This document shows, one piece after another, positions 2,654 through 48,389 of a stretch of DNA of 64,000 bases. Position 1 is the stretch's first letter. Each line of letters starts with the position of its first letter. This stretch comes from Azolla caroliniana (taxonomy: Eukaryota > Plantae > Polypodiophyta), in assembly GCA_043228905.1 (NCBI GenBank), contig JBHGNT010000012.1, forward strand, positions 7,502,001 through 7,566,000. Direction: 5' to 3'. The position numbers and the translations under genes were made by a program. The notes beneath the pieces are model-generated. The model searched no databases and had not been told where the DNA came from. It worked only from the letters and a program-made list of their open reading frames with translations.

Positions 2654-2965
2654 CGTAAACGAAAGTGTTTGCGGAAGCGTAAAACAGAGAGCAACACAGA
2701 GAGAGACAGAGACAGAGACAGAGAGACAGAGAGACAGAGAGACAGAGAGACAGAGAGACAGAGACAGAGACAGAGAGAGACAGAGAGAGCGAGAGAGACA
2801 GAGAGAGCAGAACGTAGTTTCAAAATTATATCAAGACTCTGTATATACACTGTGCTAAGTAGCACTATTTATACAAGTCCTCTTGGGACTAATAGAAGTA
2901 CCATGTACTTCAATGCTCACACAAGCATCTGACACTTACTACGAGACTATAGCTACCTAGTAGTC
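2654..2965 (-). repeat. partial copia 5' LTR containing a (GACAGA/GAGA)n microsatellite (~2686-2810)
   Basis: Adjacent to the PBS; TATAAATAG on the - strand; similar to the LTR at 15287-15618 (GGACTTGTATAAATAGTG...GTTCTGCTCTCTCTGTCTCTC). Confidence 0.75.
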
Positions 2966-4122
2966 TATCCTAACGGGTAGGACCCATTATACTCACGTGT
3001 CAGCCAATACAGGCCGGTCCATCTAAACCGTAGTTTACCCGGCATCTTGCCCATCCAGGTCTGAAATACTAACACCGGCTTGCCGATTGCAAACATTTTT
3101 TCATTTCCTTTCCTGTGCCGGTCGACAAATGCTTTCCGTCGTCGTTGTTCCAATTCTAAGTGCAGGATGCTTGCCAGTCGTTGTTCCTCGAGTTCACACA
3201 ACGTTGTTAACCGTATTGCCTCCGACTCCTTCTCGTTCAGCCGTTCCCATAGCTGGATCCGTAAGCTGGGTACTTGGAATTCCATCGGCATTACTGCCTC
3301 TAGTCCGAACGCTAACCGGAACGGTGTTGTTCGGATGCTCGTTTTATATGTCGTTCGGTATGCCCAAAGCGCACTATGTAGCTTGGTATCCCAATCCATT
3401 TGGTTTTCGTTGACGATCTTCCAGAGGATATTCTGGAGCATTTTGTTCGTCGATTCAGCTAACCCGTTTGCTTGCAGATAGTATGGTGTGCTCCGTTTAT
3501 GGACAACGGCATAGAATGTCGTCAGGCTTTCAACTACTTGGCTGAGAAAGTGCCCCCCTTGGTCGCTTATTAATTCGATTGGGCATCCGTAACGGCACCA
3601 AATGTACTCGTATAGAAATTTTGTCGTTGACGTAGCGGTGTTGTCTCTTAAGGCTTTGGCCTCCACCCATTTCGTGCAGTAATCCGTCGCGACGATGACG
3701 TACCGATTACCTGTTCTCATTGCCGGTGGTTTGAACGTTCCAACAAAGTCCAACCCCCACTTCTGGAATGGTTTGAGTAGTAGTACAGGCTGGTGTGGCA
3801 TCTGAGCCTGCTCCGTTGGTTGGCCCATTCGCTGGCATAGGTCACATTGTTTTGTGTACCGTACCGCATCTCTTAATGTCGTTGGCCACCATAGGCCACT
3901 TTGCCATATTTTCCTGGCTGTCGCATCTCCGGCATAGTGACCTCTGGCAACTCCGCAGTGGGCTTCCCTCAGTATCAGGTCCTTTTCATCGTTGCGCACA
4001 GCCCGTCTCCATATGTTGTCTGCGCCCTTGTGGTAAAGTGTGTCTCGCAGCACCGCCAGGCGTTTCCTTTCGTCCCGGTTCATCTCTTCTGGAGGCAGTC
4101 CTGTGCTCAGAAACTGGTGCAT
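2965..4122 (-). pseudogene. gypsy integrase of element A
   Basis: HHCC zinc finger (H...GHY...CDLCQ), DDE core, GPY/F-like RWTGLYW; truncated at the junction with the copia LTR. Confidence 0.88.
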
Positions 4123-4259
4123 ATTTGTGAGCCACTTGTCTTCCTATGCCACAGTTTCATCTGCTGTCGTTTCCGTAGTGACTCGAAACAGCTCTGCATC
4201 CGGAAACTCGTCCGCTACTCCGTCACCCGTCTCTCCGGACTCTAATCGGCTTAAGTAAT

Positions 4260-4612
4260 TGTCAAGATTCGAACTCTTGACACGACCATGTTATAATCTA
4301 CTATTATGAGTTAACCAAGATATCTAGTACTAGTTATGTATGTAATTGGTCCTTATTATTTTGCTAGCATCATGTGCATAGTTGCTCCCTTGTAGTATTT
4401 ACACTTGGCACATGCATGCATACCTACATGCTCTATTGTAGATTCACATGCGTGCAACAAGTATGCATGCCATGTAGTATAAATAGAGGAGTTCACCTTG
4501 AAGGAATTCAAGGTGAACAACACCAGTTATGGAGTCTTTCCTTTAGTACTATCTTCTTTCTTGTCCATTTGGTTATCTTCTTCGTTGTCTCTTGAGTTTA
4601 TGATCCGTGACA
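4260..4612 (+). repeat. 5' LTR of element B (TATA box 4478-4485, predicted TSS ~4510)
   Basis: Direct repeat of 9200-9552; TATAAATA followed 32 nt later by a CA initiator. Confidence 0.95.
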
Positions 4613-4662
4613 GTTTGTTCACCTTCCCATCCTCATAGCTCTCCCTCTCATAAGCCATAGCT

Positions 4663-5679
4663 ATGTCCGACTCAACTAGTGAGTTAGGCCAAATAATGGT
4701 AGCCTTACGACAACTACAGCTTGAAAATGAAGCTCTTCGAAATTCTTTACAAGAACTTCAAGTCGGTACCTCCCTATCCTCACAACCCCTGAACCCTAGT
4801 CTCCCACAACAACCTAGCCTAGAGCCCGATCTTCTACCAACATCTAGCCTAGCTTCGTCACAGTTTCTTGAGCCTAAGGTTAGCCTCCCAGAAAAATTTG
4901 ATGGAACGAGGTCGCGTTTCCGAGGGTTCATCAACCAAGTTCGACTTATCATTCGGCTACAACCTCAACGTTATGGAGATGGTCTTCGACAAGTCGGCCT
5001 TGTGGGCACCCTTCTCTCCGGTCCGGCCCAAGCTTGGTTTGCACCATTGGTAGAAACCTCATCACCTTTATTGGAGGACTTTCCCGCCTTCCTCGCCGAG
5101 TTAGAGGCCACATTTGGAGAGACGGACCGACGACGTACAGCTCTTAACAAGATTTATGCACTCGAACAAGGTTCACGTGCAGCTTCAGTCTATGCTTCCG
5201 AATTTCGACAACTAGCATGCGACGTCAATTGGGATGATCAAGCTTTAGCTGATCACTTTCGGCGCGGTCTTCGAAGCAATGTCAAGAATCTTCTCTTAAA
5301 CTTTCCGGAGCCCACCTCGTTATCCCAAGCGATTTCACAAGCAGTCCATTGTGACAATCGTCTTTTCGAATTTCGCCAAGAAGAGCGCCAGACTTGGGTT
5401 CCACCTCATTCACTTCCACGCCACGCCCCGATCATACAACCCCAAGCATCCTCACACTCGCCTACTTCGGCAGATGCTCCTGTCCCCATGGAAATTGATC
5501 AAGCCCGATTTCGGCCATTGACTGATGCTGAACGACAATTTCGGCGGGCTAATGGCTTGTGCATGTATTGTGGCGCCTCCGGTCATGTCGTTCGCCATTG
5601 TCCTAGGAGTACTCGCCCACAATTCCATAGAGCTACCGGCCCCCAACATCCGGAAAACGACATCGTTCGGTTGCAGTAG
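4663..5679 (+). CDS. gag (PEG10/RTL1-like capsid + CCHC knuckle) of element B
   Basis: PEKFDGTRSRFRGF, LLSGPAQAW, LEQGSRAASVYASEF, PVPMEID, CMYCGASGHVVRHC. Confidence 0.95.
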   Translation: MSDSTSELGQIMVALRQLQLENEALRNSLQELQVGTSLSSQPLNPSLPQQPSLEPDLLPTSSLASSQFLEPKVSLPEKFDGTRSRFRGFINQVRLIIRLQPQRYGDGLRQVGLVGTLLSGPAQAWFAPLVETSSPLLEDFPAFLAELEATFGETDRRRTALNKIYALEQGSRAASVYASEFRQLACDVNWDDQALADHFRRGLRSNVKNLLLNFPEPTSLSQAISQAVHCDNRLFEFRQEERQTWVPPHSLPRHAPIIQPQASSHSPTSADAPVPMEIDQARFRPLTDAERQFRRANGLCMYCGASGHVVRHCPRSTRPQFHRATGPQHPENDIVRLQ

Positions 5680-8600
5680 GAGCCATGCAACTGGACATCT
5701 CCCGTCGCCCACATTCTCTTGGTTCCATTGCCGGACCATCAGGCAATTTCACATTGGAGGTATGGCTTTCGTTTAACTCTAGTTCCATTCAGTCTGTTGC
5801 TTTACTTGATTCTGGGGCATCTTCTTGCTTCATCGACGTCGCGTTTGCCCAAGCACATGGCGTACCTGTCGTTGGCCTCTCAAAACCCATTCCAGTTGAA
5901 GCCATCGACGGGTGCGTCCTCTCGTCAGGTGCAATTACTCAAGCTACAATCCCATTAGGGCTTCGGGTGGGCTCACACCAAGAGGAGCTCACCTTTTACC
6001 TCATCGCATCTCCTCGACATCCGATCGTCTTAGGACTAACGTGGTTGGAGGCGCACAATCCAATAGTGGATTGGTGCAACCGCTCAATCACATTTAGCAA
6101 GCCAAGATGCTCGTGCAAAAGTATGAAGGTAAATTCAGTTTCCTATCCTTCGGAGACGGTCGACTCCGAATTGACTACCCCATCATCCGTCCAGGATGGG
6201 TTTGTTTGTGGCGCCATTTCTAACACACTCCATGTTATTCCCGAAAAATACCAACACTTCTCCGACGTATTTGAAAAATGTAATGCTGATCGGTTGCCTG
6301 AACACCGGCTCTACGACTGTCCGATTGATCTTCAAGAAGGTGCGTGTCCACCCTTTGGTCCTCTATATGCGTTGTCTGCACCAGAGTTGAAGGCCCTTCG
6401 TGTGTATCTTGATGAGAACCTCGAGAAAGGCTTTATTCAACCTTCTAAGTCACCAGCCGGGGCCCCCATTTTATTTGTGAAGAAGAAGGACGGCTCTCTA
6501 CGCTTATGCGTCGACTACCGAGGTCTCAACAAACTCACTGTGCGCAACCGCTATCCGCTACCTCTGATCCCCGAACTCCTTGATCGGCTCCGAGTTGCGC
6601 GTGTCTTCTCCAAAGTTGATCTGCGTGGCGCGTACAATCTAGTACGCATCAAGCCGGGGGATGAATGGAAAACCGCATTTCGAACACGGTATGGGCATTT
6701 CGAATACAAGGTAATGCCTTTTGGTCTTACTAACGCTCCCGCAGTTTTTCAACATATGATGAACGATATTTTCCGGGAATATCTTGATCTTTTTGTTGTC
6801 ATTTACCTCGATGATATTCTCATTTTCTCGCCAAACATGGAGGAGCACACTCGCCAAGTCCGATTAGTTCTGGCCAAACTTCGCGAGCATGGCCTTTATG
6901 CCAAAGGCGAGAAATGCGAGTTCGACCGTACCTCGATTGAATTTCTGGGCTACATCATCTCACCCACTGGCATCACCATGGATATGAAGAAGGTCTCTGT
7001 CATTCAGGCGTGGGCGACTCCAAGGCGACTTAAAGATGTGCAATCCTTCCTCGGCTTCGCGAATTTTTACCGTCGCTTCATCAAGGGGTTTTCCACCCTA
7101 GCACAACCTCTTATCGCTCTCACCCATAAAGGCACTCCATTTTTATGGACCTTGGAGGCACAAAATGCGTTCGACTCACTCAAACATGCATTCATCACTG
7201 CCCCGGTGCTGCTACATGCCGACCCCACAAAACCCTTCCAAGTCGAAACCGATGCCTCTGACTTTGCCATTGGCGCCATCTTATCCCAAGCAGACGACAA
7301 TAACCTAATGCACCCAGTGGCTTACTATTCCCGAAAATTTACGGCATCCGAAATCAATTATCCCATTTACGACAAGGAGCTTGCTGCTATCATTGCTGCC
7401 TTTGAAGAATGGCGACCCTACTTGGCCGGCGCACAACATCGTGTCCAGGTAGTGACTGATCATAAAAATTTAGTTTATTTTTCCACCACTCGTACTTTGA
7501 ATCGAAGGCAGGCCCGTTGGTCTACATTTCTCGCCGACTACGATTTTGAGATCGTATTTCGACCTGGTGGCCAACATGGGAAGGCTGATGCCCTTTCTCG
7601 CCGAGCTGACCTTGCACTCCGCCCTGGGGATGCTGCTTATGCTCAACAATCTAGACGTTTGTTGAAACCCGACCAATTGCATCTGTTTGCCACTTGTATG
7701 TTGCAGGATGATTCTTTACTCCAACAAATCACTGATGCATCCAAGACCGATGCGTTCGCCAACGAGATTCGAGATAGTCTGCAAAACCCCTCCAAGGCGA
7801 CCAAAAGGAAGGATCTTGACACCTTCACCATACAAGAGGGTTTGTTGTTCCGAGATCATCTCTTATACGTCCCAGAGGGCCCATGTCGCACCCGGGTGTT
7901 GCGGGAATGCCACGATGACCCACTTGCAGGTCATTTCGGGGTTGCGAAAACCCTCGAGCTAATCTCTCGGGGGTATTGGTGGCCACAACCATGGAAGCTG
8001 GTCAAAGAATACATAAAGAGTTGTGAGGTTTGTGCTCGCTCCAAAGCCATTCATCATCGGCCATACGGCTTACTACAACCGCTTCCATGTCCTCGTTGTC
8101 CTTGGGCCTCTATCTCTATGGACCTGATAACTGATCTACCCTTGGTCAATAGCTATGACTCGGTGTTGGTCGTTGTCGATCGGTTTACGAAGATGGCTCA
8201 CTTCACTCCATGCTCCAAAACCATTTCCGGAGAAGGAATGGTGCATCTCCTACTCAACAATGTAGTACGCTTGCATGGACTCCCCGATGATGTCATCTCG
8301 GATCGCGGACCCCAGTTTGTCTCTCACTTCTGGCAGCGCCTGCTACAAACTTTAGGCATCTCTGTCAAGTTGTCCTCTGCTTATCACCCCCAAACTGACG
8401 GGCAAACGGAGCGTGTCAACCAAATCCTTGAGCAGTATCTTCGGTGCTCGGTTAGTTACCAACAAGATGATTGGGTCAACTTACTTTCGCTCGCAGAATT
8501 CGCCTACAATAATTCTCTCCATGCATCGACTGGTGTCACTCCCTTCTTTGCCAACTACGGTTTACATCCTCGCTTCAACATTTCCCTTCCTACCACTTCC

Positions 8601-9236
8601 GTGAACCCTTCGGCGGAGGATCGTGCCCGCATTTTGGAAGAAGTACATCATGATTTATCCTTGGAGCTTAGTCTTGCTAATGAACGATACAAGAAGCAGG
8701 CTGATCGCCATCGATCTTCCACTCCACACTTTGTCGTTGGAGACATGGTCTGGTTGTTACGTCGACACATCTCTACTACTCGTCCATGTGCGAAACTTGA
8801 TTACAAGAAGTTGGGACCATTCCGTATCATCGAGTGCATCAATCCCGTCGCCTTCCGGCTCGCCCTTCCATCCCACTTCCGGATTCACGATGTTTTTCAT
8901 GTCTCCCTCCTCGAACCCCATTATGCTTCACAACTCCCAGGACGTCAAGCCCCACCACCACCACCTGTGCAATTGACGACAGGGGAGGAATACGAGGTCG
9001 ACCAAATCCTTGACTCGCGTTGGCACCGTCGACACTTGCAATACCTCGTCCTATGGAGGGGTTACCCCATGTCTGAGGCCACATGGGAACCATCGGCAAA
9101 TTTACAAAATGCCCCAGAGGTCGTCCAAGATTTTCATCACCGATATCCCCACAAACCAGCAGCCGATTTGGGAAGGCGGCGGCGTAAGAAGGGGGATAAT
9201 GTCAAGATTCGAACTCTTGACACGACCATGTTATAA
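5652..9236 (+). CDS. pol (PR-RT-RNaseH-INT-chromodomain), in the -1 frame relative to gag
   Basis: ALLDSGAS, YLDD, ETDASD, TDHKNL, INT ISMDLIT..SDRGPQF..QTDGQTER, C-terminal chromodomain EYEVDQILDSR..YLVLWRGY..TWEP. The frame is open from the slippery site at 5652 through the ATG at 5685. Confidence 0.95.
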   Translation, partial: GKRHRSVAVGAMQLDISRRPHSLGSIAGPSGNFTLEVWLSFNSSSIQSVALLDSGASSCFIDVAFAQAHGVPVVGLSKPIPVEAIDGCVLSSGAITQATIPLGLRVGSHQEELTFYLIASPRHPIVLGLTWLEAHNPIVDWCNRSITFSKPRCSCKSMKVNSVSYPSETVDSELTTPSSVQDGFVCGAISNTLHVIPEKYQHFSDVFEKCNADRLPEHRLYDCPIDLQEGACPPFGPLYALSAPELKALRVYLDENLEKGFIQPSKSPAGAPILFVKKKDGSLRLCVDYRGLNKLTVRNRYPLPLIPELLDRLRVARVFSKVDLRGAYNLVRIKPGDEWKTAFRTRYGHFEYKVMPFGLTNAPAVFQHMMNDIFREYLDLFVVIYLDDILIFSPNMEEHTRQVRLVLAKLREHGLYAKGEKCEFDRTSIEFLGYIISPTGITMDMKKVSVIQAWATPRRLKDVQSFLGFANFYRRFIKGFSTLAQPLIALTHKGTPFLWTLEAQNAFDSLKHAFITAPVLLHADPTKPFQVETDASDFAIGAILSQADDNNLMHPVAYYSRKFTASEINYPIYDKELAAIIAAFEEWRPYLAGAQHRVQVVTDHKNLVYFSTTRTLNRRQARWSTFLADYDFEIVFRPGGQHGKADALSRRADLALRPGDAAYAQQSRRLLKPDQLHLFATCMLQDDSLLQQITDASKTDAFANEIRDSLQNPSKATKRKDLDTFTIQEGLLFRDHLLYVPEGPCRTRVLRECHDDPLAGHFGVAKTLELISRGYWWPQPWKLVKEYIKSCEVCARSKAIHHRPYGLLQPLPCPRCPWASISMDLITDLPLVNSYDSVLVVVDRFTKMAHFTPCSKTISGEGMVHLLLNNVVRLHGLPDDVISDRGPQFVSHFWQRLLQTLGISVKLSSAYHPQTDGQTERVNQILEQYLRCSVSYQQDDWVNLLSLAEFAYNNSLHASTGVTPFFANYGLHPRFNISLPTTSVNPSAEDRARILEEVHHDLSLELSLANERYKKQADRHRSSTPHFVVGDMVWLLRRHISTTRPCAKLDYKKLGPFRIIECINPVAFRLALPSHFRIHDVFHVSLLEPHYASQLPGRQAPPPPPVQLTTGEEYEVDQILDSRWHRRHLQYLVLWRGYPMSEATWEPSANLQNAPEVVQDFHHRYPHKPAADLGRRRRKKGDNVKIRTLDTTML

Positions 9237-9552
9237 TCTACTATTATGAGTTAACCAAGATATCTAGTACTAGTTATGTATGTAATTGGTCCTTATTATT
9301 TTGCTAGCATCATGTGCATAGTTGCTCCCTTGTAGTATTTACACTTGGCACATGCATGCATACCTACATGCTCTATTGTAGATTCACATGCGTGCAACAA
9401 GTATGCATGCCATGTAGTATAAATAGAGGAGTTCACCTTGAAGGAATTCAAGGTGAACAACACCAGTTATGGAGTCTTTCCTTTAGTACTATCTTCTTTC
9501 TTGTCCATTTGGTTATCTTCTTCGTTGTCTCTTGAGTTTATGATCCGTGACA
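9200..9552 (+). repeat. 3' LTR of element B
   Basis: Identical to the 5' LTR; preceded by the PPT and followed by the TSD. Confidence 0.95.
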
Positions 9553-9557
9553 GTAAT

Positions 9558-16241: not shown

Positions 16242-18747
16242 ATTCCAACTTTGGTATTTCAGCATAAGACTCTGGGCTTGTGATATCGGAAGATGATGGT
16301 GATTTATCAACTGATTGTGGACAGAACCAACCATCTGAATCGATACCAACTAAACCGAGAAGAGCAAAAATCCAAGTCTAACAAAAAGAGATGGATTCAG
16401 CCCAGTGTTGAGATTACATCAAATTTAGATGAGGAAGCACCAGATGTTGGAACTATCCACATTGGATTTGGGAGAGCCACAAGGTCTTGGGACTTGACAA
16501 CGATAATAAGTTAGTCAATATGCCTTAGTGCATTGTTGTAGAATACTTAACATAAAATACATGTAGAATATGTATGCTAAGTATTCTAACTTTTAGAATA
16601 CATATTTTATAGATAAAATACGTTAAGTATGTTAAATAATTAGAATATGTGTAGAATACTTGGAATACGTTAACTACTTCTTAAAATATATAGTTTTTTT
16701 GTCAAAAATAAATAAAAATTGTAAACCTTTTTGAAATGGTAAATACTTGTTAAATATGTAGAATAGGTCAAATTTTTAGAATACAACAAATTTTGAAAAT
16801 TTGTAGTTCTAAAACGTAGAATACACGTTGTCGCGAGGTTTCGTGCGTGCGTGTAGAAGGGCGGGACCACGGGGGTCTCGGACGAGGGAAGAAGGGAAGC
16901 CGAGAAGACGATTCCGGACGCGTTCCGGAAGCAACCGAGTGGGAGAGAGAAAGAGAGAGAGTGCGCGCTTGACACCGACTCACACACACACACACACACC
17001 ACGCTGACCCAACTCACGCCTTATGTACAGAAACGAGAAAGAAACACAAAGACACACACACACACACCAACAGAGACTCGAATATGCACAACCAAATGTA
17101 TATGTATTTACAAGACAACGAGATTCAACACCGTCTTCGAACCGGACCTAGGTCGCATCGGATGCAATTGTTGTCTACTGCTAAGCCGCCGAGCGGGGTC
17201 TTGCACAGAGTACAGGGCAGAAAACCGAAACGCTAGATGCCAAGGCTCGACACACGGAAGGACGAAGAAGAAGCAGAGGAGAGAAAGAAGAGACCCTAAA
17301 ACACGAGAAGAGAAAGAAAGGAAAGAAAGAGAGAGAGAGGAAGAGAGAACGTCTCTTCGTCTAACGGTATACCCTGCTAATACAAAATGGGCAACCCCTT
17401 CACAAGAGGCGCTCCCTTCCTTTTATAGAACAAGGAGGGAGATGCGTTACAATGTGGGATAAATCCCGACTTACATGGGATTCTCTGTCCCGACTTGACT
17501 ACTCTTCGGCGCCCTTGTTATTCACCCTAAATGTACAAGGGTGAGCGCACATGCTGCACCCCGCTGATGTAGCTGATATTTCCCGATTTCCGCCTCTGGC
17601 CGAAATTCTTCACGACATCCGCCCCCACCAAACCGCACGTCCACCGATATGTGCCAAATCCGGTGAAGGGTGAGAGATTTCGGCCGGTGAGAAACCGGTC
17701 AACCGTAATCCACATCCCGGCTCGCTGCCGGTTTGAATCGTCAGCTTCGGTTCTTCCTTCGCGCTTACCTCCCCGTAGGTTCGTTCGACCCGTCGATGGG
17801 TCCTTCGTCACGATCTCCGTAGTACGCGTACTTTCACTAGCCCTTGTTCGATCGTATGCACGCCTCGCTCTCCGCCGTATGCCCGATGTCCTCCGTTTGA
17901 GGAACGCCCGTAGTGGCCCGCCTGGCCTCCGTCGACCATTCGTGTGGTCCTGATTGTCGTCCCGCGTTGTTTCCCACAGCCTTCGTCCCCTCACCGCCAC
18001 TTTCCTTCTCCTTGGTCTTACGTCACCACGTCGGCTCGGACCGCCAAGGTCGTCGAGACGGTGTGGAGGATCCTTCTTTGCGCGACCTCTGAACCGTGCA
18101 ACCCATTCTTCGCGCTCGCCTTTCCGTGCCGACACCTCCGTGTGCCGCATATCCTCGTCTGTTGTTTGGCACTGCCTGTGCCACACTCCGGTTCTTTGCA
18201 CGCCTTGTCGGCCCCTTTCCCGGCCAGATCGTGCATTGCCGCTCATCCGCATACCAATGTCCTCCACATCCGAGGAACACCCCGTAGTAGCCTGCTTGGC
18301 CCTTTCCGTCTTGCGTTGCTGCAACAGGTCCCGAGTCTTCCGCTTGCCGTCGTCCCCTCGCCCCCACCAGCTTGTCATCCCGGGCTTGCCGTGTCAGTCT
18401 TCGTTACTCTGACTGTCTTGCCGAGATCTACGAAGCGAGTGTGGAGGATCTATGCACCCATCACCTCGTTCCCAGCACCACCCTTGTGCCGTCTTCCGCT
18501 TCCTTTGTTTAGCACCGCCCGTGCCAAACACCGTCCTATAGTCACGCTTCGATCCGGCCCGCGATGGCCACTTGCGAGACTCTTGTTCTGTCCCAGGTGT
18601 GCCTTTCCGGCTCGACACACCTCCTTGTGTTTGCCCCTACCGGCTCCTTCTGAAACCGTAACCGGCTGGTAAGGGTTCCACACTTCGTCCACCCCCGTCT
18701 TACCGACTCCCGATCCGCTATCTCGTGTCGCCGGGTCCCATTCCCTA

Positions 18748-19990
18748 CCGCCACCGTCCTTCTCCCTAGGTCTCATGTTGCCACGTTGGCTGAACTGCCG
18801 GAGTCTCCGGATCGGTGTGAGGGTCCCATAGGACTGGACTCCGTTTCTCTGCTTGCCAAAATTCGGGTGTCTTTTGCGGGAGTCCTTTGCGACTCTCCTC
18901 ATGTCTTCCGCGTAGCTGGGTCCTGTTTCCCGCCGCCACCAACCTTCTCTCTCGGTCTCATGTTGCCACATTGGCCAAACTACCAGAGTCTCTGGTTCGG
19001 TGTGGGGATCCCGTAGGACCAGACTTCCTTATGCCCACTGACCTTGCCGGTAGGTCCGATTCGGTTCGTAGCTGCTTCGCCGGCCTGATAACTTCTTTCT
19101 CTGCTTCCATCGTCCGATCACATTCACCTGCCGCCACCGTCCTCTCCTATAGGACTCACACCGGCACTCGGGCCGACGAACCGAATCGGTGTGAGGATCT
19201 TCGTGGGACCTCGGTTTGCCCGCCTTGCCGCTGCCACTGCCCGTTGCTCTAGGTCTCACATCGGCACTCGGGCCAACCGCCGGAGCCTCTAGCGTTGGTG
19301 TGTGTAAGTTCGCGGCACCGCCGCTTGTATCCTCCGTCCCCCGCATCAACCTCTTCGGTTGGTCGCGTTCACCTACCGCCACCGATCTCTCCTATAGGAC
19401 TCACGTCGGCACTCGGGCCGACAACCGGATCGGTGTGAGGATCTTCGCAAACCGCCCATCCGTATTTCTTTGCCTTCGTCCCCTCGCCGCCACCGATCAT
19501 CACTCTAGGCCGACCGCCAGAGTCTCTAGAACCGGTGTGAAGGATCCTCCTTGGGCTCGTCGTATCTCTGACCCTTATCCTGGGTCTTCCTTCTTTCGCA
19601 AGCTGAGAGGATGCCTCGCTCCACAGCCTCTCCCATGCTACTGGCACCGTGTTCCCAGCCTCTCCGTAGGCTTGCTCTCTTCCTCCCTCCCGGAGTGGTT
19701 ATCCGGGAGTCCGCTTCGCCCGGTTCTCGTCCGGGTCCGTCCGTCTCCTCTAGATTGCCGGGTCTCGTTCTCCTGTCGCCACCGATCTCTCCTATAGGAC
19801 TCACACCGGCACTCAGGCTGACAGCCAGATCGGTGTGAGGATCTCCGTAGGACCAGTCTTCGTTCTCCTCTTCCTCCTTTGTACTTCTCCCAAACTCGTC
19901 GTTGCTCTCCTTCTCGCGTACCCACCTCCATCTCCCATCTCTCCAGGTCTCACGCCGGCGCTCGTTGTCGGCTGCCTGAGTCTCCGGATA
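18748..19990. repeat. dispersed ~70-bp internal repeats of element C
   Basis: (C/T)CGCCACCG..CTCTCCTATAGGACTCAC..GGCACTC..GATCGGTGTGAGGATCT at ~19131-19200, 19376-19445 and 19776-19845, with diverged copies at ~18748, 18930 and 19930. Confidence 0.8.
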
Positions 19991-20554
19991 AGACGTGGTG
20001 TTTCCGTCCCGTAATGATTTGCGGACGCTCGTTCGGGGTACCGCTCCCCAAGCATGTTCGGTGAGAAGCATCTGGACTTCGATCGATCAAGTGCGGCATG
20101 CACTTGATTCTCTAATGACCAGAGTTTCGGGCAGCGGTCCGCAACCTTGATCGCTAGCTTCCCGATCTGCGGCCTTCGCCTGGCCAGCTTGTGTCCTCAT
20201 GTAAAAGAGGGCGATTGTTACGCACCCTCTTCCGCGCCGGCACTATCGTACCGAACCGAACCCTACCGATCGGGCTCTATAACCCGTCCCTGGTCTTTCG
20301 CGCCTTGGGCCGGTTTCGGTCAAGTCATCCACATCCAGATCACGCTCCATCCGAATCGGAACGCCGATCTTTCCATGCCGCCTCCGTCCTTGGCCTCCTC
20401 GCAGGCCGTTTCCCATCCTTCTTCGCTGGCATCGTGCCAGGACTCCTCATCAACACCTTTCTTCTCTCCGGTCTCATGTCGGCACACGGGCTCGATCATC
20501 GGAGTCTCCGGAATCCGCGTGGAGGGCTCTTGTCCGCTCCCGACCATGTCCTCA

Positions 20555-21009
20555 TGTTACGGGCATGACCATTTAATATCCCGTGGTGAGAATTTACCGT
20601 AGTATTCTATACACGTGGATAAGTGTGAGGGTTAAACGAGAGTGTAAAGAAGGGGAGGATTACTTTTAATCCTCGGGATTGAGACAACCCATTAGGTCAA
20701 GTGTGAACTTGCCTGGGGGCCTTGGGTATCGCTATAAATAAGAGGCCTAGCTACCCTCATTTTGGGATCTTTTGACTACATCGAGACTCTGCTCATGTGG
20801 TGGGTCAACTCTTGTAGCGAGCGCGCCAGCACCAGGTACGACTCGACGCCACAGCGGTGGTATGGGACGCCGATCGAGGCTCGAGTCCGTCTCGATCCCT
20901 TCGCTCGGGGGTGGTCGGGTGGATCGGCACCCTTCTTTCTCTTTCTCCTTTCTATCTATCATTACTTTATCCTTATCTTAAGCTTACTTTAGTACTTAGA
21001 TCTATAATA
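20555..21009 (+). mobile_element. solo LTR inserted in the gag region of element C
   Basis: Starts TGTTAC, has TATAAATA at ~20733, and is flanked by TSD CCTCA (20550-20554, 21010-21014); the terminal CA appears mutated to TA. Confidence 0.78.
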
Positions 21010-22441
21010 CCTCAGTTGGCAATTCTCCGCAAGTCGAGAGGGCGTTTTGTTCCGCACCCTCTCCTGTGGTACCGTCGTACCGATCTCCTGTCATCGCGTG
21101 GGGCAAGTCCATCTCTTCGGTCTCGGCTTGCGGCCTCGATCTTTCCCCTTCCTCGAGCATCGCCTCGAGAGCTGCGTACGCCTCCGCAATCCTGGCCCCA
21201 ACGCCGACCCTTGCTGACTCTCTTTGCCATTCGGCCTCTTCCCGCTGTGGTGGCACGCCGTCGCACGCCTTCCTCTTAGCCTTCTCGGCTCACTCCTCAT
21301 CTAGCCGTTGGCACACCCTTCGGTGAGGCCATTCGCTCCGTCCTCGTCTTCGAGCTCAATCCCGATGGCCTCCCGTTCCGCTCGGTCGATCAACTTAACG
21401 AACAACAGGACTTTGTCTGCCCCCACCAAACCTTGTTCCCGCTCCGGGAGCTGAGCAAGCCGCCGCTCGTACTCTCGGAACGCCTTCATTGCGCCCCGGT
21501 GGGTCTTCGCTGACGATATCCATTGGTCGAAGTCACGCCTTCCCCGGCCTTTCGGCCGCCCTCCGTATGCCTTCAGGAGCGCCTCTTCGAAGGCCTCCTA
21601 CAAACTATGAGCCCCACTGAGCTCCTTTACTTCTACATGCATCCGGACAGCTACGACCCAAATGAAGAACTCCAGCCTTAACGCCTCGTCTACGCCACGC
21701 ACTTCCATTTCTGCGTTGTAGGCTTCCAAGTAGAATGGGACCTTGTCCCCATTGAAACGGCCGACTCTTTCGACCACTTGCTCAACCGCTTGTTGCGTTG
21801 CTTCTCGCCTCATCACCACTCGTGCAGACTCCAACACCACTTCGGCCACCATCTCTGCGAGGTCATCATCTTCCGACTCCATGCTCCCTTGCCGCCCTTC
21901 ACGTCGGGTTCACCAATTTTGTCGCGAGGTTTCGCGCGTGCGTGTAGAAGGGTGGGACCACAGGGGTCTCGGACGAGGGAAGAAGGGAAGCCGAGAAGAC
22001 GATTCCAGACGCGTTCCGGAAGCAACCGAACGGGAGAGAGAAAGAGAGAGAGAGCGCGCTTGACACCGACTCACACCCACACACACACACACCACGTCGA
22101 CCCAACTCACGCCTTATGTACAGAAACGAGAAAGAAACACAAAGACACACACACACACCAACAGAGACTCGAATATGCACAACCAAATGTATATGTATTT
22201 ACAAGACAACGAGATTCAACACCGTCTTCGAACCGGACCTAGGTCGCATCGGATGCAACTGTTGTCTACTGCCAAGCCGTTGGTCGGGGAGCTCTCGAGC
22301 TTGTCGCGCCGAGCGGGGTCTTGCACAGAGTACAGGGTAGAAAACTGAAACGCTAGATGCCAAGGCTCGACACACGGAAGGACGAAGAAGAAGCAGAGGA
22401 GAGCAAGAAGAGACCCTAAAACCAGAGAAGAGAAAAAAAAA

Positions 22442-22492
<51 letters not shown>

Positions 22493-22950
22493 GAGAGAAC
22501 GTCTCTTCGTCTAACGGTATACCCTGCTAATACAAAATGGGCAACCCCTTCACAAGAGGCGCTCCCTTCCTTTTATAGAACAAGGAGGAAGATGCGTTAC
22601 AATGTGGGATAAATCTCGACTTACATGGGATTCTTTGTCCCAACTTGACTACTCTTCGGCGCCATAAAGGCGCCCTTGTTATTCACCCTAAATGTACACG
22701 GGTGAGCGCACATGCTGCACCCCGCTGATGTAGCCGATATTTCCCAGTTTCCGCCTCTGGCCGAAATTCTTCATGACAACGTTTTTTAACAATTATGCCT
22801 TAGTGTATTGGAAACAATTATTTCATGCACGAAATCTAGTTGTGGTCAATAGTTTGTGATACATGCTAATTCTAGCTTAAAAAACAGGTTCTAACTTGCA
22901 TGTCAAAGACTAGATCTATTGTTGATTGTGGTAGAGGCTGATTTTTGTAG

Positions 22951-23496: not shown

Positions 23497-25001
23497 GCAT
23501 TGGTTCTTAGAAGTATTATGTTGTAGGGTTCTGAGTATTGGTTTGGACATGACTATGACGAAATGGGTAGGGTTTTGAGTGTTGGTTCAAATGACTCTGG
23601 CGAAATGGGCACGTCGGGTTTTGGGGTTGACGCTTATTGAGTCGAGTGAGTCACAAAGATCCTTGATCTTCAAGGTGTAGCTTGTGATGGACATATCCCT
23701 TTGTTGAATATTATTCAACTCTTGGCAAAGTTGAAGCTTTCTTGCGGTTGTATTGGCCACGAAAATCTTCCTAAGATTCTCCCATGTTTCCTTCGGCATC
23801 TTGGCTTCACGAATTTAGCCACACATATGGTCATGGACAAATGTCACCAAGCAATACATCAGTTGACTTGCGGCTTGCTCCCATGTTGAGGATTCGGGAG
23901 TCGTTGGGTCGGGTCAATTTTCTTGAGCTCATTTGATGTAGCTCCAATAACCTTGGCTGACAAGGTATTGGTGCATCTTGTACTCCCAAGATGCAAAGTT
24001 GTTTCTATCCAACTTCTCGCTAGGGAGAGCGCTCCCATTTGAGTATTCACTACGTCGATGTAGATTTCTTTCCTTCTTCTTCTCTCTTGAATACGAGCTA
24101 TGTAGTCGCACTACGATAGCGATGAGCCGGTTCGTCTTGAACGTCAGCGTAGAAAACAACACATGTGAATGGGCTAGAATGAACTACCAAATCGCTTTGA
24201 TACCATGTAAAGAATCGATGGTGATTCTGTGCAGTGGAATACATTAGAGATGTGTTGTGTGTGTGTGTGTTTGAGAAGAGGAGAGGAGAGAGACACAAAA
24301 TAGATAGAATGGAAAATAGAATACTTAAGAAATTGTATATTACAAAGGAGATTAACCAACACCATAGAATGACATATTCGCATTCATGGGGTTTCCCATT
24401 TTCAAATACGAATACGAATGCATGGTCCAATATTCGTTTAACAAAAAAAATAAAAAAATAGAGTACATGAACTCCCTCTTTTTTAGTTTCCTAGGATATA
24501 AAAAAAGGGACTTGACATTAAAAAGGGGACAATAAAAGTGGGACTTTACACTAATAAAATTTTATAGTAAATGTAGAAGTATTCGTTTTATTTTTAATAA
24601 ATAAATAAAATAAAATAAAGGTTCGTTAATTCCTCAGTTTTTCTCTCTTAAAATTTATGGATATTTTTATCTGACATTAAAAATGGGACTTCACACTAAT
24701 CATACATATTGTTAGGTAGTGAGACAAGAATGGGTCTAGTTAGTTAGGCATAGTGCCAAGAAGTGAAAGTTGTAACTAACATGAATATAAATAGAAACAA
24801 AGGATGTTAGGACCCTTTTTGGAGCCTATTTGGTGTATGTCACATTCGTGGACATAACGGGCTCTTGCCACGACGTCTGAAGGTGTAGAGTACTCCAACC
24901 GACCTCTTGATGAAGCACAACAAGCTGACAACGAACTCTTCTCATTAATAGCCAATATTCGCCTCCGGGTCACCATCCACAACACAAAGATTTCATACAC
25001 A

Positions 25002-25973
25002 ATGCAGCAACCACAAGGGGATGACACTGTCAGCATGCAACCTGAATTCATAGAACACACACAGGTTAATCCCGCCATGGAGCAGATGTTTCAAGTGATG
25101 TCAACAATGATGATGCAAGTAAATCATACAAACCAAACACTTATGACATGGCTTACAAATCAATCCGATGGGATAACGACCAAAAAACAGAAAGATTCTA
25201 GAATCGACCAAATCCTTCTCGGGTCTTCCAACCGAAGATGTTCTAGCATGGTTGATCATTTCAACAACGTGGCGAGTTATCATGAATGGCACGACGAAAG
25301 AAAGGCGTTAGAATTGCGAACGGTGCTAGAGCATGTTGCCGCCACATGGTTCATTCAACAACCCGAGGAAATCAAACAAAATTGGACCTACTTACGCAAG
25401 CAACTCATACAACACTTCGCAAACAACAACGTCACACAAACAACTCTCCAACAATTAAACAATTTATGTCAACATGCACATGAACCGGTGACACAATTCG
25501 CCGTCAAAATGAAACAGTTGTTGCTGCGTGTCGACCCCCATATGAAGGAGACCATGAAGCTCTATTTTCTACTACCACGAATACGCCATGACATATACCG
25601 TCGTGTCAGAGACCAAGGCCCAACGTCATTCCAGATGGTTGTGCAAATCGCACAACGAATTGAAGCACCGAATTACATCGACCTATCACAGCCGACACCA
25701 CCTGCAAATAACAATATTCAAAAGACAACGATGGAGCCAACCGCTAGTCCGATGGATGAAGTTATCCAAAATGTACAATTCAACACCAAAAAGAGCTTAC
25801 CATATAGAGACAATCATGGTAAGCCCCATTGTTTCTATTGTAATGGGTATGACCATGTTAAAAAATATTGCAGGAAGTTTGCAACCTCTAAACATCATCA
25901 AAATGTACAAATTCAATTGGCCGACGTTGCATCATTCACCATGGAACAGGGAAACAACCAAGCGGGATGTTGA
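25002..25973 (+). pseudogene. gag of element D
   Basis: Retrotransposon gag core (AATWF..NWTYLRKQLIQHF..LCQHAHEPVTQF) and degenerate knuckle CFYCNGYDHVKKYC. Confidence 0.8.
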
Positions 25974-26148
25974 CAGAAGAGCAACTCCCGCACATTCAAG
26001 CCGCAACCTCTTCTGGACGTATGGTCTGTTCCACAATAGCACAAATAGATAACACATCACATGAAGCCCTTTTAGATTCAGGAAGCACCATATTTTCAAT
26101 TAGTATAGATTTAGATTCACGAATATAGTCGCGGATTCGTTATCCCAA

Positions 26149-27360
26149 ATGGAGTATCGAGCCTCCCAATTCAGCATACAAAAGGATGAGCCCCCGGTTC
26201 ACCCCCAGCAAGTCGCGGAAGAGATTATCCTACAAATCCAAGAAGGTAGGCAAAGTCACATCCATCGTAATTTTATAATTATTAATAACATTTTACATTT
26301 TGTAAGCCAAGGTCAACCACCACGAGTCTACATACCAAAGGCTCTTCGTTCAAGCTATCTAGAGTTCTACCATAGTAGTCAACTCACCGGGCACTTCGGA
26401 TTCCACAAGTTGTTACATTGCATTCAATCCCTCTACTATTGACCCAAGCTCCATCAATCCATCTCTCAATTCTTGAAAGCATGCCCAACATGTCAATCAA
26501 TGAAGGCTCCTCAACAATCGTATGGGACATTACACCCCATAGAAGTTACCGAGCCCGTCGAGTTGGTGGGATGGGACCTAATGGGCCCTTTCCCTACATC
26601 AATTCATGGCAATAAATACATTTTGGTAATAACTGAATACCTAACCCGCTAGTGTGAGGCAATTGCCCTATCCAATGCCATGGCTAGTTCGGTCAGAGTT
26701 ATTTTTCCTCATGGTTGCCCGCACCAACTGTTGTCGGACCAAGGATCACAGTTCCGCAGCGAGGTTATTCGCATACTTAGCCACAGCTTGGGCATCACGC
26801 AAATCTTCACATTGTCGTATTATCTGCAGTCTAACGAGCTCACCGAACAATTAAACAAGTAATCTCAACATATGTGGATCCATTACACCAATCATGGGAT
26901 CAAGTTTTACCCTTTGTTGTCCATGCATACAATACCTCGGTACATGTATCTACTCGCATTAGCCCCTTTCGGGCATTGTATGGTTGCGATCCACGACTGC
27001 CGCTAGACATACATACCCCGTAAAAGTCCAACCTCGCCACACGGATGCAATTTAATGGTGGTTGCACCTCCAGACGCACAACCACTATTGCGACGCGCAA
27101 TCCAACACAACCTGCGCATGGCCCAACAACTACGGAAAAAACATTTCGATGCTTCTCATACGTCGCTCGAGTTACAAGTAGGAGAAACAGTCTGAGTATA
27201 CTACCCGATTCGCAAGCCCAGACTTTGCAAATCATTCATGCATAGATGGTTAGGACCCTACACAGTTTTGGCACGCATCAGACCATAGACATATCGTTTG
27301 CGACGCACATCAAATTCTTCAGAGACAGTAGCTCACATATGCCGCATTAAACGCGTACCT
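26149..27360 (+). pseudogene. integrase remnant of element D
   Basis: GHFGFHK..CPTCQ..GWDLMGPFP..GNKYILVITEYLTR..LLSDQGSQF..WDQVLPFVVHAYNT read across frameshifts. Confidence 0.8.
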
Positions 27361-28189
27361 GTAGCTACCCCGGAGGTAGGTGACGAGCGATCAACCAAGG
27401 ATCATATTAGAGACGCCCACGAGGTCTCTACATTCATTATAAAGATTGGGTTTTTACTTTTCAAAAAGGGGGGGAGAAAGAGGAGGGTTGGATAAACCCT
27501 AGCACCCTTTTTCAAAAAGGGGGAAGTGTTAGGTAGTGAGACAAGAATGGGTCTAGTTAGTTAGGCGTAGCACCAAGAAGTGAAAGTTGTAACTAACATG
27601 ACTATAAATAGAAACAAAGGATGTCCAATGAGGGACCCTTTTTGGAGCCTATTTGTGTATGTCACAATATTTCTATAATAAATATAAAAACATTCGTTTT
27701 TTTTAAATAAAGGTTCATAAACTCTCCCCTTTTTTATTTGACACTAGTGATAAAGGAAAGTTAATACTAATCATATTTTTATAATCTATTAATGAATGAT
27801 TATTCTTTTTTACTGAATTAAATTTATTTATTGTTTAAATAATTAATTAATTAATTTTTTGCATATTTATTTTGCAAAACGAATGGTTTTATAATATTCT
27901 TAGGGCAATTTCGTATTCTTGATATTTCAGAATATCACGCATGTGCTAATCAATGACCAACACATTACAAAGTAGGAGTGTGCTTTATATAGTCACCCTC
28001 TCTCTTCATTAACTACCGAAGCTCATCAATCATGGGGAGTGTGGAAACTCATTAGTTATGTGTCATAGAATATGATTCTATGACACATAGTTAATGTGTA
28101 GAGAGTAGTGGTGACTTTTGACCTTAGAGTGCTCATAGATTCTCAAGATGTGTTCACAAACTAGTCTAGGTTGAGCTCAATTATCAACA

Positions 28190-34800: not shown

Positions 34801-37800
34801 GAAAAAGCATCAAGCAAACAGGTGCAGGTGGTCCAATTCGAATTTGATAATATTAACGGCCAATATGGATATTAAAGATTAATATTATACACTTTATTAT
34901 CGTAAGAATTTGAAGAATTCATTGATTTGGGAAAACAAATGATCTAGCACATGGTTGTTTCTAGGAAAATTGGAAAACATTAAACAAACAGTGTGGATGC
35001 TCCAATATTGATGTGATACTATTTATCACCAGTGTGGGCTTTAAAGTTTGATGTTACACACGTCACTAGCCAAAGAATTAATTGGTTTGGGAAAGTGAAC
35101 CTGTATTTTAGGATTAATCAAACATTCAAGAGAAGTTGTACTCACTGTTTATTTACTACTATGTAATCATGATCATGTATCAATGGGGTTCATGTGCTTA
35201 CAGAAAAAGCTTTAGACTGAAGACTCTATGCATTACATGGTAGAGTACAAAATGTGCTTTGGTTCGTATTTGATTTGAAGTTAATTTAACATACCTTCAG
35301 CAGTCTTGATGACACAAAGTAGTGTTTACTGGTGTCTCGAGTTGAAGATGCTTTAATTATCTTGATATGCTAACAACTCCTATAACTCATCGTCGTTTCC
35401 CAATCTTTGAATTTTGATTACGTGTTGTTGAATGCTGCTGGATAAATAGTTTGACATAACACACAAAAATTAAAGCATAGACTGATGCTGATGGCACATA
35501 AACTCTGAAGATGCAAGGTTCCAAAAAATTTGAGGAGGGTGTACACGTTGGTTTTATCGTGTACCTTTCATGGTACATGTGATGTGAAATTTAAACTGTG
35601 CCATAACTAGGATCTAGTTATCACGAGAAAGGGTATTTTAAAATTTGAGCCTTTTTAATTTCGTTACATTTCCAGACAAGATTGCATAAAATTATTAGAA
35701 GTAATTTTCATAAAAAGCAAAAAAACTTGTTATGATTGTAACATGGCTATACATTGCATAAACGAGATATAGATTGGTTCTTGTTTTTGTATGGACTCAA
35801 TATATCCTTCACTGTAACAATCTTGACTGTCATTTGGATGGAGTTGATCTATACTTTCCCTAGCTTATGGGGGCATTTTCTGGTTCCTCTTGTGCTGCTC
35901 AAGAACACTGATGACATTTTCTTCAAGTTTGGGGTTACTTGTTCATGTTCTTTACACACAAAGCAGATGTTGCAGAATGGAATTATAACACTCCACAGTG
36001 GTTTTTTGTACATACCACTTAAAGACTCTTTATGTTCATTGTATCAGTTCTTATATATTGGGATATGGTCGGGCATATTTATTGTGGCCCATTGTTCGTT
36101 GTATAATTCATATATAGTAATACAGATTTTCCATTAAGAACAATTGTATAATTGACTTCCATGATTTTTACTGAAATGCATTTCAGTGACTTGGGTTTAC
36201 ATTTTCCTAATGTTAGCAGCCATTTCTTGACATCAATGGCAATTTTTGAAATTTACCTACTCAGCAATTTTCACAGTTATAGTTGCATGACATCATCATA
36301 ACTTGGCTCATCACTGTATGTACATATTCATATATCCTTGTATATAGAGTCTTGCATAAGGTTGTTTGAAAGGCTCTTCACCATATATTACTTCTACATT
36401 CCATGTCTACATTTTTGGCACTACAGTTATTGCTTGACATGGATGATGATATTTTAAATTTGACTTATTCTTCAATGATCGACTGCTTCTTGTTCACTAG
36501 AAATCGAGCCCTTAATACCACTGATGTCATGTTTAAAAAGACATTGTAGCATCTAAAAAAATACTACAGCTCTCTGATGCTCTAGATGAAGAAATCTAGA
36601 GTCTATAGTTGGATACCACACCTATGTTATGAAGGAATCTTGAGTTGGACAGAGTAAGATAGAGGGCTGATGGTAGTGTAATAAAAATAATACAGTTCTC
36701 GTGCTTAAGATGGAGAAATCTAGAGTCTGTAGTTTGACACATACTAATTGATGAAGCTTTACCTACTCTTCAATGATCAACCACATCTTGTCCACTAGAA
36801 TTCGAGGCCTTAATACTAGTCATTGGGTTATTTAAGATATAGGGGTAATGGTACCATATAAAAAATAATGCAGTTCTCTCATGGTTTAGATGAAGAAATC
36901 TAGAGACTATAGTGGAACACTACGCATATGAGATGAAGAACAGCAGAGAAGTAATATTTATGCATCTACATTTTTATAGCACCTTCAGGAGAAGTGACAG
37001 AGTTAGTATGTTAATATATTTTATAATTCGAGTCTGTGGTTGGACACCACACATCTGTGATGAAGAGGAGAAAGAAATAATATTTACATTCCATGTCTGC
37101 ATTTGTCCAGCACTTTTAGGAGAAATGGCAGAACTAGTTCTATTGCTTGACATGGATGATGATATTTTAAGTTTTACTTACTCGTCAATGATTCATTGCT
37201 TCTTGTCCACTACAATAGGGCCCCAAGAACAAATTGAGGTCATGTTTAAAAGGACAAAGTAAGATAGAGGGCTCATGGTACTATTTACAATATACAGCTC
37301 TCTCTTTCTTAGATGAAGAAATCTAGAGTCTGGTAGTTGGACTCTGATACATTATTTCATGGAGAGGAGTTCAAGAGCAGAAAGAAATACAGTTTACAAG
37401 TAATTTGAACTTATTAAACATATACCAATGGGAGTATGGTACATATCGACACACAGAAAGAGGCAGCAGAAAACAAAGGTTATAAAATGCGTCTACACTA
37501 GGTATTACAATGGTAGCCTAAATTTATGAGTTCTTCTCATGTCATTGACATTAGGCACTTATGCTTAGTGATTTTAGTGACATGATGCATCATGTATGTG
37601 AAGCATGTCAATGGAAGTAAATGTTTCTTAAACTTGATGCATTGACCTGGCTGAATTTATGTTCTCAAGTTTCATCTTGACATTACCTTTCCCTTAAAAA
37701 CTGTCTATATGGGCCCTGCAGCCACACCCCTTTGGAGAAATGGCCCAGAAGAAAAGCCTGTGCTATGCAATGCGTGTGGTTCAAGGTGGCGAACAAAAGG

Positions 37801-47451: not shown

Positions 47452-48389
47452 GCATCAATTTTTAATTATCACACTACACTATGATGAAACAAGCCACATG
47501 AGCAAAAGTATCTTATCATATTAAACTTAAGATATAATGGGCTTTGGGTTCATTGAAGACCAATGTTTGGCAAAATTATTGGCTAGGTTTCCTTTTCATG
47601 CATGAAATAGTATAAAATTACAAGATATTAATGCAAGTTTACAAGTGTTTAGGTAGTATCTTATATACCTTTTGTCAGATTTTGCTCCATTATAGATACT
47701 TCCAACCGAAGTGTTCAAAAGTTTTTATCAGCCTTTTAGTGGATGAAAATACATTCAGCTAAAGAGAGATTCATCGATGAGAAATAACAAAGATTGAGAT
47801 TGATCTTACATCATTGTTTTTCTGTTCATCTGCAATAGCCAAAAGTGCTTCCTTCTCAGTTCTTCCCGAACCCAGAAGGGATTGAAGGAACCACTGTATT
47901 CAAAGTAAATCATTGCCAACTCTATGTTTGAAAAACTGGATTACTAGGGATTTTGTTTTCTGTTGAGGCAAAACAATACCATACATATAGAAAAAACGAA
48001 AAGAAATACCAACAAGATAAGGCACATGGATTCAGCACCTTATCCTTTTGAATGTCCCCCCAATATGATGAATTGCAGAAATAGTCTCTCCATTGAGCAT
48101 CGAAGTTTCTTCTTAGAACAAGTGTTCAGGAAACTTTTCTTCATTAATTGGCTCAGTTTCCTTATCATGCATGAATTAACAGGATTATTATATTATTTGT
48201 ATGAGATTTTGTGCCCTTTTTATTTGGAAAAAACAAATTTATATAAATTGAACAAACAAAAAGCAATAATATTTCTGGCAGATTTTGATCCATTTAATGA
48301 AATTTTGAAAGGAAATCAGTAAATGTTTATCGCATGTTGTCCCGTTCCACAACAAATTTAGAAACTTAACATAAATTTTATATATTTCT

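What the first reader, a model, noticed from the sequence alone, without database searches (positions are those of the whole stretch)
4478..4625. tRNA-independent self-priming signature (Tf1-type) in a plant retrotransposon
No TGG tRNA PBS follows the 5' LTR. Instead 4615-4625 (TTGTTCACCTT) is the exact reverse complement of 4510-4520 (AAGGTGAACAA). A4510 sits 32 nt after TATAAATA (4478) at a CA initiator, i.e. at the predicted transcript 5' end. This matches the S. pombe Tf1 mechanism, where the first 11 nt of the mRNA anneal to the PBS and are cut off by RT/RNase H to act as primer. A possible extra U5/leader pairing (GAGTTTATGA with TCATAGCTC) resembles the auxiliary stem of Tf1 (inference).
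Basis: partly seen in the sequence, partly recalled or inferred. Interest (0 to 1): 0.8.

Follow-up and report, generated by a model that had tools for sequence, protein, structure and literature searches.

The report
Self-priming fern retrotransposon with masking hairpin
A young, intact jumping gene in a likely fern genome carries an 11-base self-match that likely lets its RNA prime its own copying without a tRNA, as already predicted for its moss and clubmoss relatives, plus a conserved hairpin that would hide the spare copy of that primer.

Summary
An intact Ty3/gypsy chromovirus (4260-9552, identical 353-bp LTRs, 5-bp target duplication) has no tRNA-type primer binding site (PBS). Instead 4615-4625, two bases behind the LTR end, is the exact complement of 4510-4520, 32 nt after the TATA box. 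In the same genome 50 of 56 intact relatives show a match of at least 11 nt, and eight primer versions each match their own PBS. Tf1-type self-priming is therefore very likely, but it is not new: it was predicted for 83% of 1500 plant Tcn1 elements (PMC6317226). Three additions. (1) Two host genes place the host among ferns, where the papers seen list no Tcn1. It is absent from some successful relatives, and its function is untested. The transcription start and the cleavage are not shown.

The parts
4255..4259 (.). 5' target site duplication (GTAAT)
4260..4612 (+). 5' LTR, 353 bp, TG..CA, identical to the 3' LTR
4478..4485 (+). TATA box; the only TATAAA in the LTR
4491..4502 (+). U3 arm of a perfect 12-bp hairpin (anti-primer arm)
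4503..4506 (+). hairpin loop (GGAA here; variable in relatives)
4507..4518 (+). 3' arm of the hairpin, covering primer bases 1-9
4510..4520 (+). predicted 11-nt self-primer at the inferred transcript 5' end
4522..4533 (+). R segment predicted to pair with the U5 end and spacer (second duplex of the pretzel)
4594..4603 (+).
4604..4614 (+). U5 end plus 2-nt spacer (4613-4614), partner of the R segment
4615..4625 (+). primer binding site, complementary to 4510-4520
4633..4656 (+). leader with two sites (4633-4641, 4648-4656) partly complementary to U5 4594-4603
4663..5679 (+). gag (Retrotrans_gag / Ty3 capsid, CCHC motif)
5652..5696 (+). possible -1 frameshift signal: near-canonical slippery heptamer 5652-5658 and an 11-bp stem 5665-5696
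   Evidence: function inferred
5631..9236 (+). pol, open frame of 1201 aa in the -1 frame: protease, RT, RNase H, integrase, SH3, chromodomain
9186..9197 (+). polypurine tract, about 2 nt before the 3' LTR
9200..9552 (+). 3' LTR
9431..9460 (+). 3' LTR copy of hairpin and primer; here U3 is transcribed, so the primer copy is predicted to be masked
9553..9557 (.). 3' target site duplication (GTAAT)

Best explanation
This is an intact, recently inserted Ty3/gypsy chromovirus, likely of the Tcn1 (Tf1/sushi) group, whose RNA likely primes its own reverse transcription: its 11 bases at 4510-4520 are the exact complement of the site behind the LTR and are predicted to be the 5' end of the RNA. Steps: (1) Pol II starts at about A4510 (inferred from TATA spacing, constant at 31-33 nt in the fern families). 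(2) Bases 1-11 pair with the PBS (complementarity and covariation shown; pairing predicted, P = 0.94), stacked on an R/U5-end stem. (3) The element's RNase H cuts after base 11 and RT extends across the 2-nt spacer into U5 (inferred from Tf1, not tested). (4) The 2-nt spacers at both LTR edges would leave two extra bases for integrase to trim (inferred). (5) A U3 arm just upstream of the start forms a hairpin with the primer in any RNA that contains U3, that is the 3' LTR end and read-through transcripts (hairpin and its conservation shown; role inferred, about 0.4): it would keep the second primer copy from competing for the PBS. Confidence given is for self-priming.
For: Exact 11-nt match, 1 of 20000 shuffles. 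50 of 56 intact Tf1/sushi-type elements of this genome have a perfect match of at least 11 nt starting 2 nt behind the LTR. Eight primer versions each match their own PBS; 8 of 11 positions change on both sides. Cross-family matrix: 10-13 on the diagonal, 3-9 off it. L353 carries a primer change in both LTRs and the matching PBS change. A tRNA-Met-type element of the same genome (L157) shows no such match. RT groups with fungal and vertebrate elements, apart from L157/L152 and Tanacetum rows, 100/99. Selaginella SM-Tcn1 shows the same layout by eye. Hairpin: z = -4.9; 92.7% of cells paired, 3 of 12 pairs changed on both sides, 0 of 500 shuffles reach the covariation score; p <= 0.002 in 5 of 5 representatives of this lineage.
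Against: No transcript 5' end, no primer-cDNA junction and no cleavage was observed: only assembled contigs were available. The tRNA set tested was incomplete and both positive controls failed. The third pretzel duplex is not conserved (p <= 0.05 in 1 of 11 fern representatives) and the second is short in the second fern lineage (p 0.32-0.68 in 6 of 6). The hairpin is absent from the young L074 family, from L169, from SM-Tcn1 (by eye) and from most fungal-type elements; in L353 the arm did not follow the primer change. No named Tcn1 sequence was in the trees.
Confidence: 0.88

Rival explanations
1. A host tRNA half or other small RNA primes reverse transcription, and the LTR match is incidental.
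For: PBSs of the second fern lineage match tRNA T-arm sequences over 8-11 nt. The tRNA set was incomplete, so a matching tRNA is not formally excluded.
Against: No TGG, so no mature tRNA end can pair. The window's PBS matches any of 99 distinct tRNA sequences over at most 6 nt. Eight PBS versions each follow their own LTR. Half-tRNA priming is reported only for copia lineages (PMC6317226).
Confidence: 0.04
2. The primer is element RNA but not the capped 5' end of the same molecule: it comes in trans from the second packaged RNA or from an RNA that starts elsewhere and is processed.
For: The start site is not measured. RNAs starting anywhere from 4495 to 4510 are predicted to form the duplex equally well. 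Tf2 uses alternative start sites (PMC5341516).
Against: The complement begins at a C|A step 31-33 nt after TATA in the fern families and stops there, as expected if nothing lies 5' of it. The 3' copy is predicted to be masked in this lineage.
Confidence: 0.08
3. Self-priming is right, but the U3 hairpin has nothing to do with priming: it is a palindrome kept perfect by template switching, or it serves the promoter or 3' end formation.
For: Absent from a young, multi-copy family (L074 group) and L169. Fold-back template switching perfects inverted repeats without selection (own knowledge). One LTR (L065) lost the hairpin by deletion, so it is active at the DNA level. Related rows inflate covariation counts (tool caveat).
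Against: It sits at the same place in two fern lineages whose RT is only 61-66% identical. Loop and flanking spacer change while the stem is kept, with A-T, T-A and C-G closing pairs. Two primer changes between this family and the L290 family are mirrored in both PBS and U3 arm.
Confidence: 0.5

Closest known systems
Tcn1 clade of plant chromoviruses (mosses, Selaginella; Novikova 2010 PMC2864245; Neumann 2019 PMC6317226)
   Same: 5-bp target duplication, overlapping gag and pol frames, chromodomain, no tRNA PBS, predicted self-priming (83% of 1500 elements). SM-Tcn1 shares by eye the LTR end and spacer, the motif just behind the primer, a primer 33 nt after TATA, and close Gag and RT sequence.
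   Different: Host is likely a fern; the papers seen list only mosses and lycophytes. Element is 5293 bp, slightly below the 5466-9444 bp range listed. U3/primer hairpin is not visible in SM-Tcn1 and not mentioned in the passages seen.
Tf1/Tf2 of Schizosaccharomyces pombe (experimental model of self-priming)
   Same: 11-nt complement between inferred RNA 5' end and PBS (PMC7175516); a second duplex between R and the PBS-adjacent U5 end, as in the three-duplex pretzel (bioRxiv 2022.12.06.519325); chromodomain.
   Different: Two frames with a likely -1 frameshift instead of one ORF; third (leader) duplex weak or absent; extra U3 hairpin; 2-nt spacer before the PBS (Tf1's PBS abutting the LTR is's description of flanks and from recall).
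TAR lineage of Ty1/copia (Houba, Osr-1), predicted plant self-primers
   Same: Predicted self-priming in plants (89%).
   Different: Other superfamily; this element has gypsy domain order.

Membership tests
Ty3/gypsy chromovirus | PR-RT-RH-IN order with C-terminal chromodomain | tested here: met
   RVP_2 52-157, RVT_1 283-443, RNase H 531-637, rve 828-920, Chromo 1121-1171
Tcn1 clade | RT groups with non-plant Tf1/sushi elements, not with tRNA-primed plant chromoviruses | tested here: met
   split 100/99 from L157, L152 and Tanacetum rows; the outgroup rows are long branches and rooting is at the midpoint
Tcn1 clade | RT forms one clade with named Tcn1 references (Cryptococcus Tcn1, PpatensLTR2, SM-Tcn1) | tested here: inconclusive
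   no named reference could be put in a tree; comparison with SM-Tcn1 was by eye only and shows shared LTR motifs and close Gag/RT
Tcn1 clade | no tRNA PBS; complement of at least 10 nt in the 5' LTR to a stretch 0-5 nt behind it (criterion of PMC6317226) | tested here: met
   11 nt at offset 2
Tcn1 clade | 5-bp target duplication and overlapping gag/pol frames | tested here: met
Tcn1 clade | group I chromodomain with aromatic cage | tested here: inconclusive
   Pfam Chromo E = 5.6e-16; Tyr, Trp and Tyr at the expected places by eye, cage positions recalled, not aligned to a reference
Tf1-type self-priming | primer lies at the real 5' end of the RNA | not testable with these tools
   only contigs available
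Tf1-type self-priming | RNase H-dependent cut after the primer and extension from it | not testable with these tools
   needs experiment; RNase H domain present
Tf1-type self-priming | central primer:PBS duplex kept through sequence change | tested here: met
Tf1-type self-priming | second duplex, R with the U5 end next to the PBS | tested here: met
   p 0.000-0.023 in 5 of 5 representatives of this lineage; not significant in 6 of 6 of the second fern lineage
Tf1-type self-priming | third duplex, leader behind the PBS with LTR sequence | tested here: inconclusive
   p = 0.2 here, 0.01 in L306, 0.34-1.0 in the other 9 fern representatives
tRNA-primed plant chromoviruses (Tekay, Reina, CRM, Galadriel) | PBS starting with TGG, complementary to a tRNA 3' end | tested here: not met
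   contrast L157

The most novel reading that the evidence does not exclude
Fern Tcn1 elements carry an anti-primer gate: a U3 arm that evolves with primer and PBS and folds over the primer whenever U3 is in the RNA, so that only the copy at a correctly started 5' end can prime. This answers how a self-priming element, which carries its primer twice per RNA, keeps the 3' copy and read-through transcripts from occupying the PBS.
Probability: 0.4. Interest if true: 0.6.

Novelty: new variant of a known kind. Interest (0 to 1): 0.42.

Why it matters
Self-priming itself is known from Tf1 and predicted for plant Tcn1, so the headline is not new. What is added: natural compensatory changes that support the plant prediction much more strongly than a single match; a likely extension of Tcn1 to ferns, in two separate and recently active lineages, which bears on the horizontal-transfer question; and a conserved U3/primer hairpin that gives a direct, cheap test of how self-priming elements handle their second primer copy. 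Young identical-LTR copies in a small-genome fern make the first experimental test of plant self-priming practical.

Tried and rejected
RNA evidence: seven runs were listed, all as contigs; laying four cannot show a start, so the start site stays untested. tRNA test: 168 genes, 99 distinct, 18 anticodon labels from 50 loci; initiator tRNA-Met was missing (control 5 nt) and the host element's TGG-type PBS found no full match (11 of 15), so the test is weak. Hairpin as a general Tf1/sushi feature: rejected; narrow test p <= 0.05 in 2 of 10 metagenome elements, wide test in 3 of 10. Metagenome scan for self-primers: 7 of 52 loci passed a strict TATA-anchored filter, at least two of them AT-rich chance hits; more were picked by hand, so these are examples, not a rate. 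L061 sat on a long false branch because its RT is deleted; intact members (L350-L353) replaced it. The second gag-bearing LTR element in the window (24710-27666) gave only a 7-nt match and was not counted. Cluster look-up gave no organism names for close relatives. Earlier findings were not available. Lin and Levin 1998, Atwood-Moore 2006 and Esnault and Levin 2015 were not held; Butler 2001 and Goodwin and Poulter 2001 were not seen, and any of them may already describe a U3 hairpin.

Full report
1. What is there. The finding lies in the 5' LTR and leader of an intact LTR retrotransposon at 4260-9552. The LTRs (4260-4612, 9200-9552) are 353 bp, identical, end in TG..CA and are flanked by a 5-bp duplication. 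gag (4663-5679) and pol (5631-9236, -1 frame) are open; pol has protease, RT, RNase H, integrase, SH3 and chromodomain. The family is young and abundant: 30 of 30 fetched best hits differ at 0-2 of 261 positions; 368 LTRs carry the exact primer-plus-R motif and 294 LTR/leader junctions carry the exact PBS, sister subfamilies included. Two host genes in the window have Adiantum and Ceratopteris as best named hits, ahead of mosses, lycophytes and seed plants, so the host is likely a fern; the genome has 22 chromosome-size contigs.

2. The observation. Confirmed in every coordinate. The PBS starts 2 nt behind the LTR end. One of 20000 shuffled LTRs gave an 11-nt complement. RNA folded from 4510 pairs bases 1-11 with the PBS (mean probability 0.94), stacked on a stem between R (4522-4533) and the U5 end (4604-4614). 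The 150-nt fold as a whole is only mildly better than shuffles (z = -1.6).

3. Test across families. I took 100 stretches of the genome around Gag-family hits (fetched in 28-30, 52, 53). 57 gave an LTR pair with target duplication; 43 were dropped for lack of one. I set aside one tRNA-Met-type element (L157, control) and one mis-called boundary (L166) and added the window's element: 50 of 56 have a perfect complement of at least 11 nt in either LTR, always from offset 2; the other six have 7-10 nt. Most of the 56 belong to a second lineage with 61-66% RT identity to the window's element, so rows are not independent. Counting versions instead: eight primer sequences, each exactly complementary to its own PBS, with both-side changes at 8 of 11 positions and a fixed CAA end (these representatives were chosen after seeing the matches). 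A PBS matches other families' LTRs over only 3-9 nt. The primer starts at a C|A step 31-33 nt after TATA in these families. L353 shows a recent primer change in both LTRs with the matching PBS change. Tf1 copies its primer into PBS DNA at the cDNA end (PMC11042837, passages), which would itself couple the two sites; that coupling exists only if the LTR sequence is the primer.

4. The tRNA rival. No TGG follows the LTR. Against 99 distinct tRNA sequences of this genome the PBS matches at most 6 nt. The set is partial and both positive controls failed, so this test is weak; the covariation carries the argument.

5. The auxiliary stems. Tf1 needs three duplexes (bioRxiv 2022.12.06.519325, passages and part of section 28). 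The R/U5-end duplex is significant in 5 of 5 representatives of the window's lineage and not in 6 of 6 of the second lineage. It may be real in this family but is not general.

6. 4491-4502 and 4507-4518 form a perfect 12-bp hairpin (z = -4.9, 0 of 200 shuffles). It is predicted to be more stable (-17.1 kcal/mol) than the primer:PBS duplex (-14.1) and to hide primer bases 1-9 when U3 is present; primer:PBS pairing is 0.94-0.97 for starts at 4495-4510 and 0.04-0.68 for starts at or before 4491. In 18 LTRs of this lineage (16 distinct; chosen by hand for diversity) 92.7% of cells pair, 3 of 12 pairs change on both sides, loop and spacer vary, and slid controls pair 23-42%. Two primer differences between this family and the L290/L350 family (73-75% RT identity) are mirrored in PBS and U3 arm; two of those three covarying pairs rest on that one family. 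In the second lineage a wider U3/R hairpin is significant in L073, L085 and L104 (p <= 0.002), not in L116 (0.09), and a short one in L185 (p = 0.009); L074 and L169 have none. Among ten metagenome elements 2-3 reach p <= 0.05. So the hairpin is lineage-specific and not required by every active family. My reading is that it masks the 3' copy of the primer and blocks priming by read-through RNA (about 0.4); template-switch upkeep or a promoter or 3'-end role are live rivals.

7. Comparison with what is known. Neumann et al. 2019 (PMC6317226; passages; supplement table 5; supplements 1 and 3 unreadable) predict self-priming for 83% of 1500 Tcn1 elements from mosses and club-mosses, by a 10-nt complement rule that this element meets. 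Tf1's mechanism is described in PMC7175516 and PMC4600332 (passages); PMC5341516 (passages) shows start-site choice gating Tf2 priming. Novikova et al. 2010 (PMC2864245; passages; supplement S3) and 2012 (PMC3350952; passages) place Tcn1 in mosses and Selaginella, after a PCR survey of 26 ferns and horsetails. By eye, SM-Tcn1 shares the LTR end, spacer, post-primer motif and primer position with the fern elements, and has no obvious U3 hairpin. RT trees put the element with fungal and vertebrate elements, apart from tRNA-primed plant rows, but held no named Tcn1; membership is likely, not proven. The two fern lineages do not form one supported clade, which would fit two entries or an old split; I did not test this.

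8. Novelty. Searches for Tcn1 with fern terms listed no paper that, from listing or passages (PMC8282616, PMC13469084), reports Tcn1 in ferns; genome-paper supplements were not searched and may list it. Searches for a U3/primer hairpin in self-priming elements (passages of PMC3601003) found none; the primary Tf1 papers and the two 2001 surveys could not be read. Verdict: the mechanism is a known kind and was already predicted for this clade; the fern host, the covariation and the masking hairpin make it a new variant. Interest 0.42.

Noticed in passing
PMC2864245 supplement S3 (SM-Tcn1), record positions about 392-406 and 499-513: The paper states that no evidence for self-priming was found in SM-Tcn1, yet its own sequence shows by eye a 15-nt complement between LTR and the stretch 2 nt behind it, in the same layout as here.
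   Followed up: partly
window 2965-4259 and 9553-about 14500, minus strand: The element sits inside an older, broken Ty3/gypsy element, between its RNase H and integrase parts; that host element has a TGG-type PBS near 13825.
   Followed up: partly
window 5652-5696: Near-canonical slippery heptamer followed by an 11-bp stem in the gag/pol overlap; likely -1 frameshift signal.
   Followed up: partly
window 9200-9236: The pol frame runs 37 nt into the 3' LTR before its stop.
   Followed up: no
L073, L085, L074, L169: Primers of the second fern lineage resemble tRNA T-arm sequence (8-11 nt matches at tRNA positions 53-54); likely chance, since registers differ and a T-arm gives no 3' end.
   Followed up: partly
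L065, 5' LTR: The hairpin and most of the primer are deleted in one LTR only, as expected from palindrome-driven deletion after insertion.
   Followed up: no
window 24710-27666: Short (about 2.9 kb) LTR element with gag but no long pol frame and no clear PBS of either kind.
   Followed up: partly
window 16828-22778: About 5.1 kb-spaced long repeats around a GC-rich interior of 100-400 bp repeats with no Pfam-tested ORF; possibly a non-autonomous LTR element.
   Followed up: no
L121, L122, L138, L139, L140: Tandem arrays of tRNA-Lys/Asn, tRNA-Ile and tRNA-Arg genes in this genome, 4-9 genes per 3 kb.
   Followed up: no
window 37655-38116, 45427-47454, 61929-62405: Host genes: GATA factor exon, PPR protein with E motif, RNase II exon; the first and last have ferns as best named hits.
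   Followed up: partly
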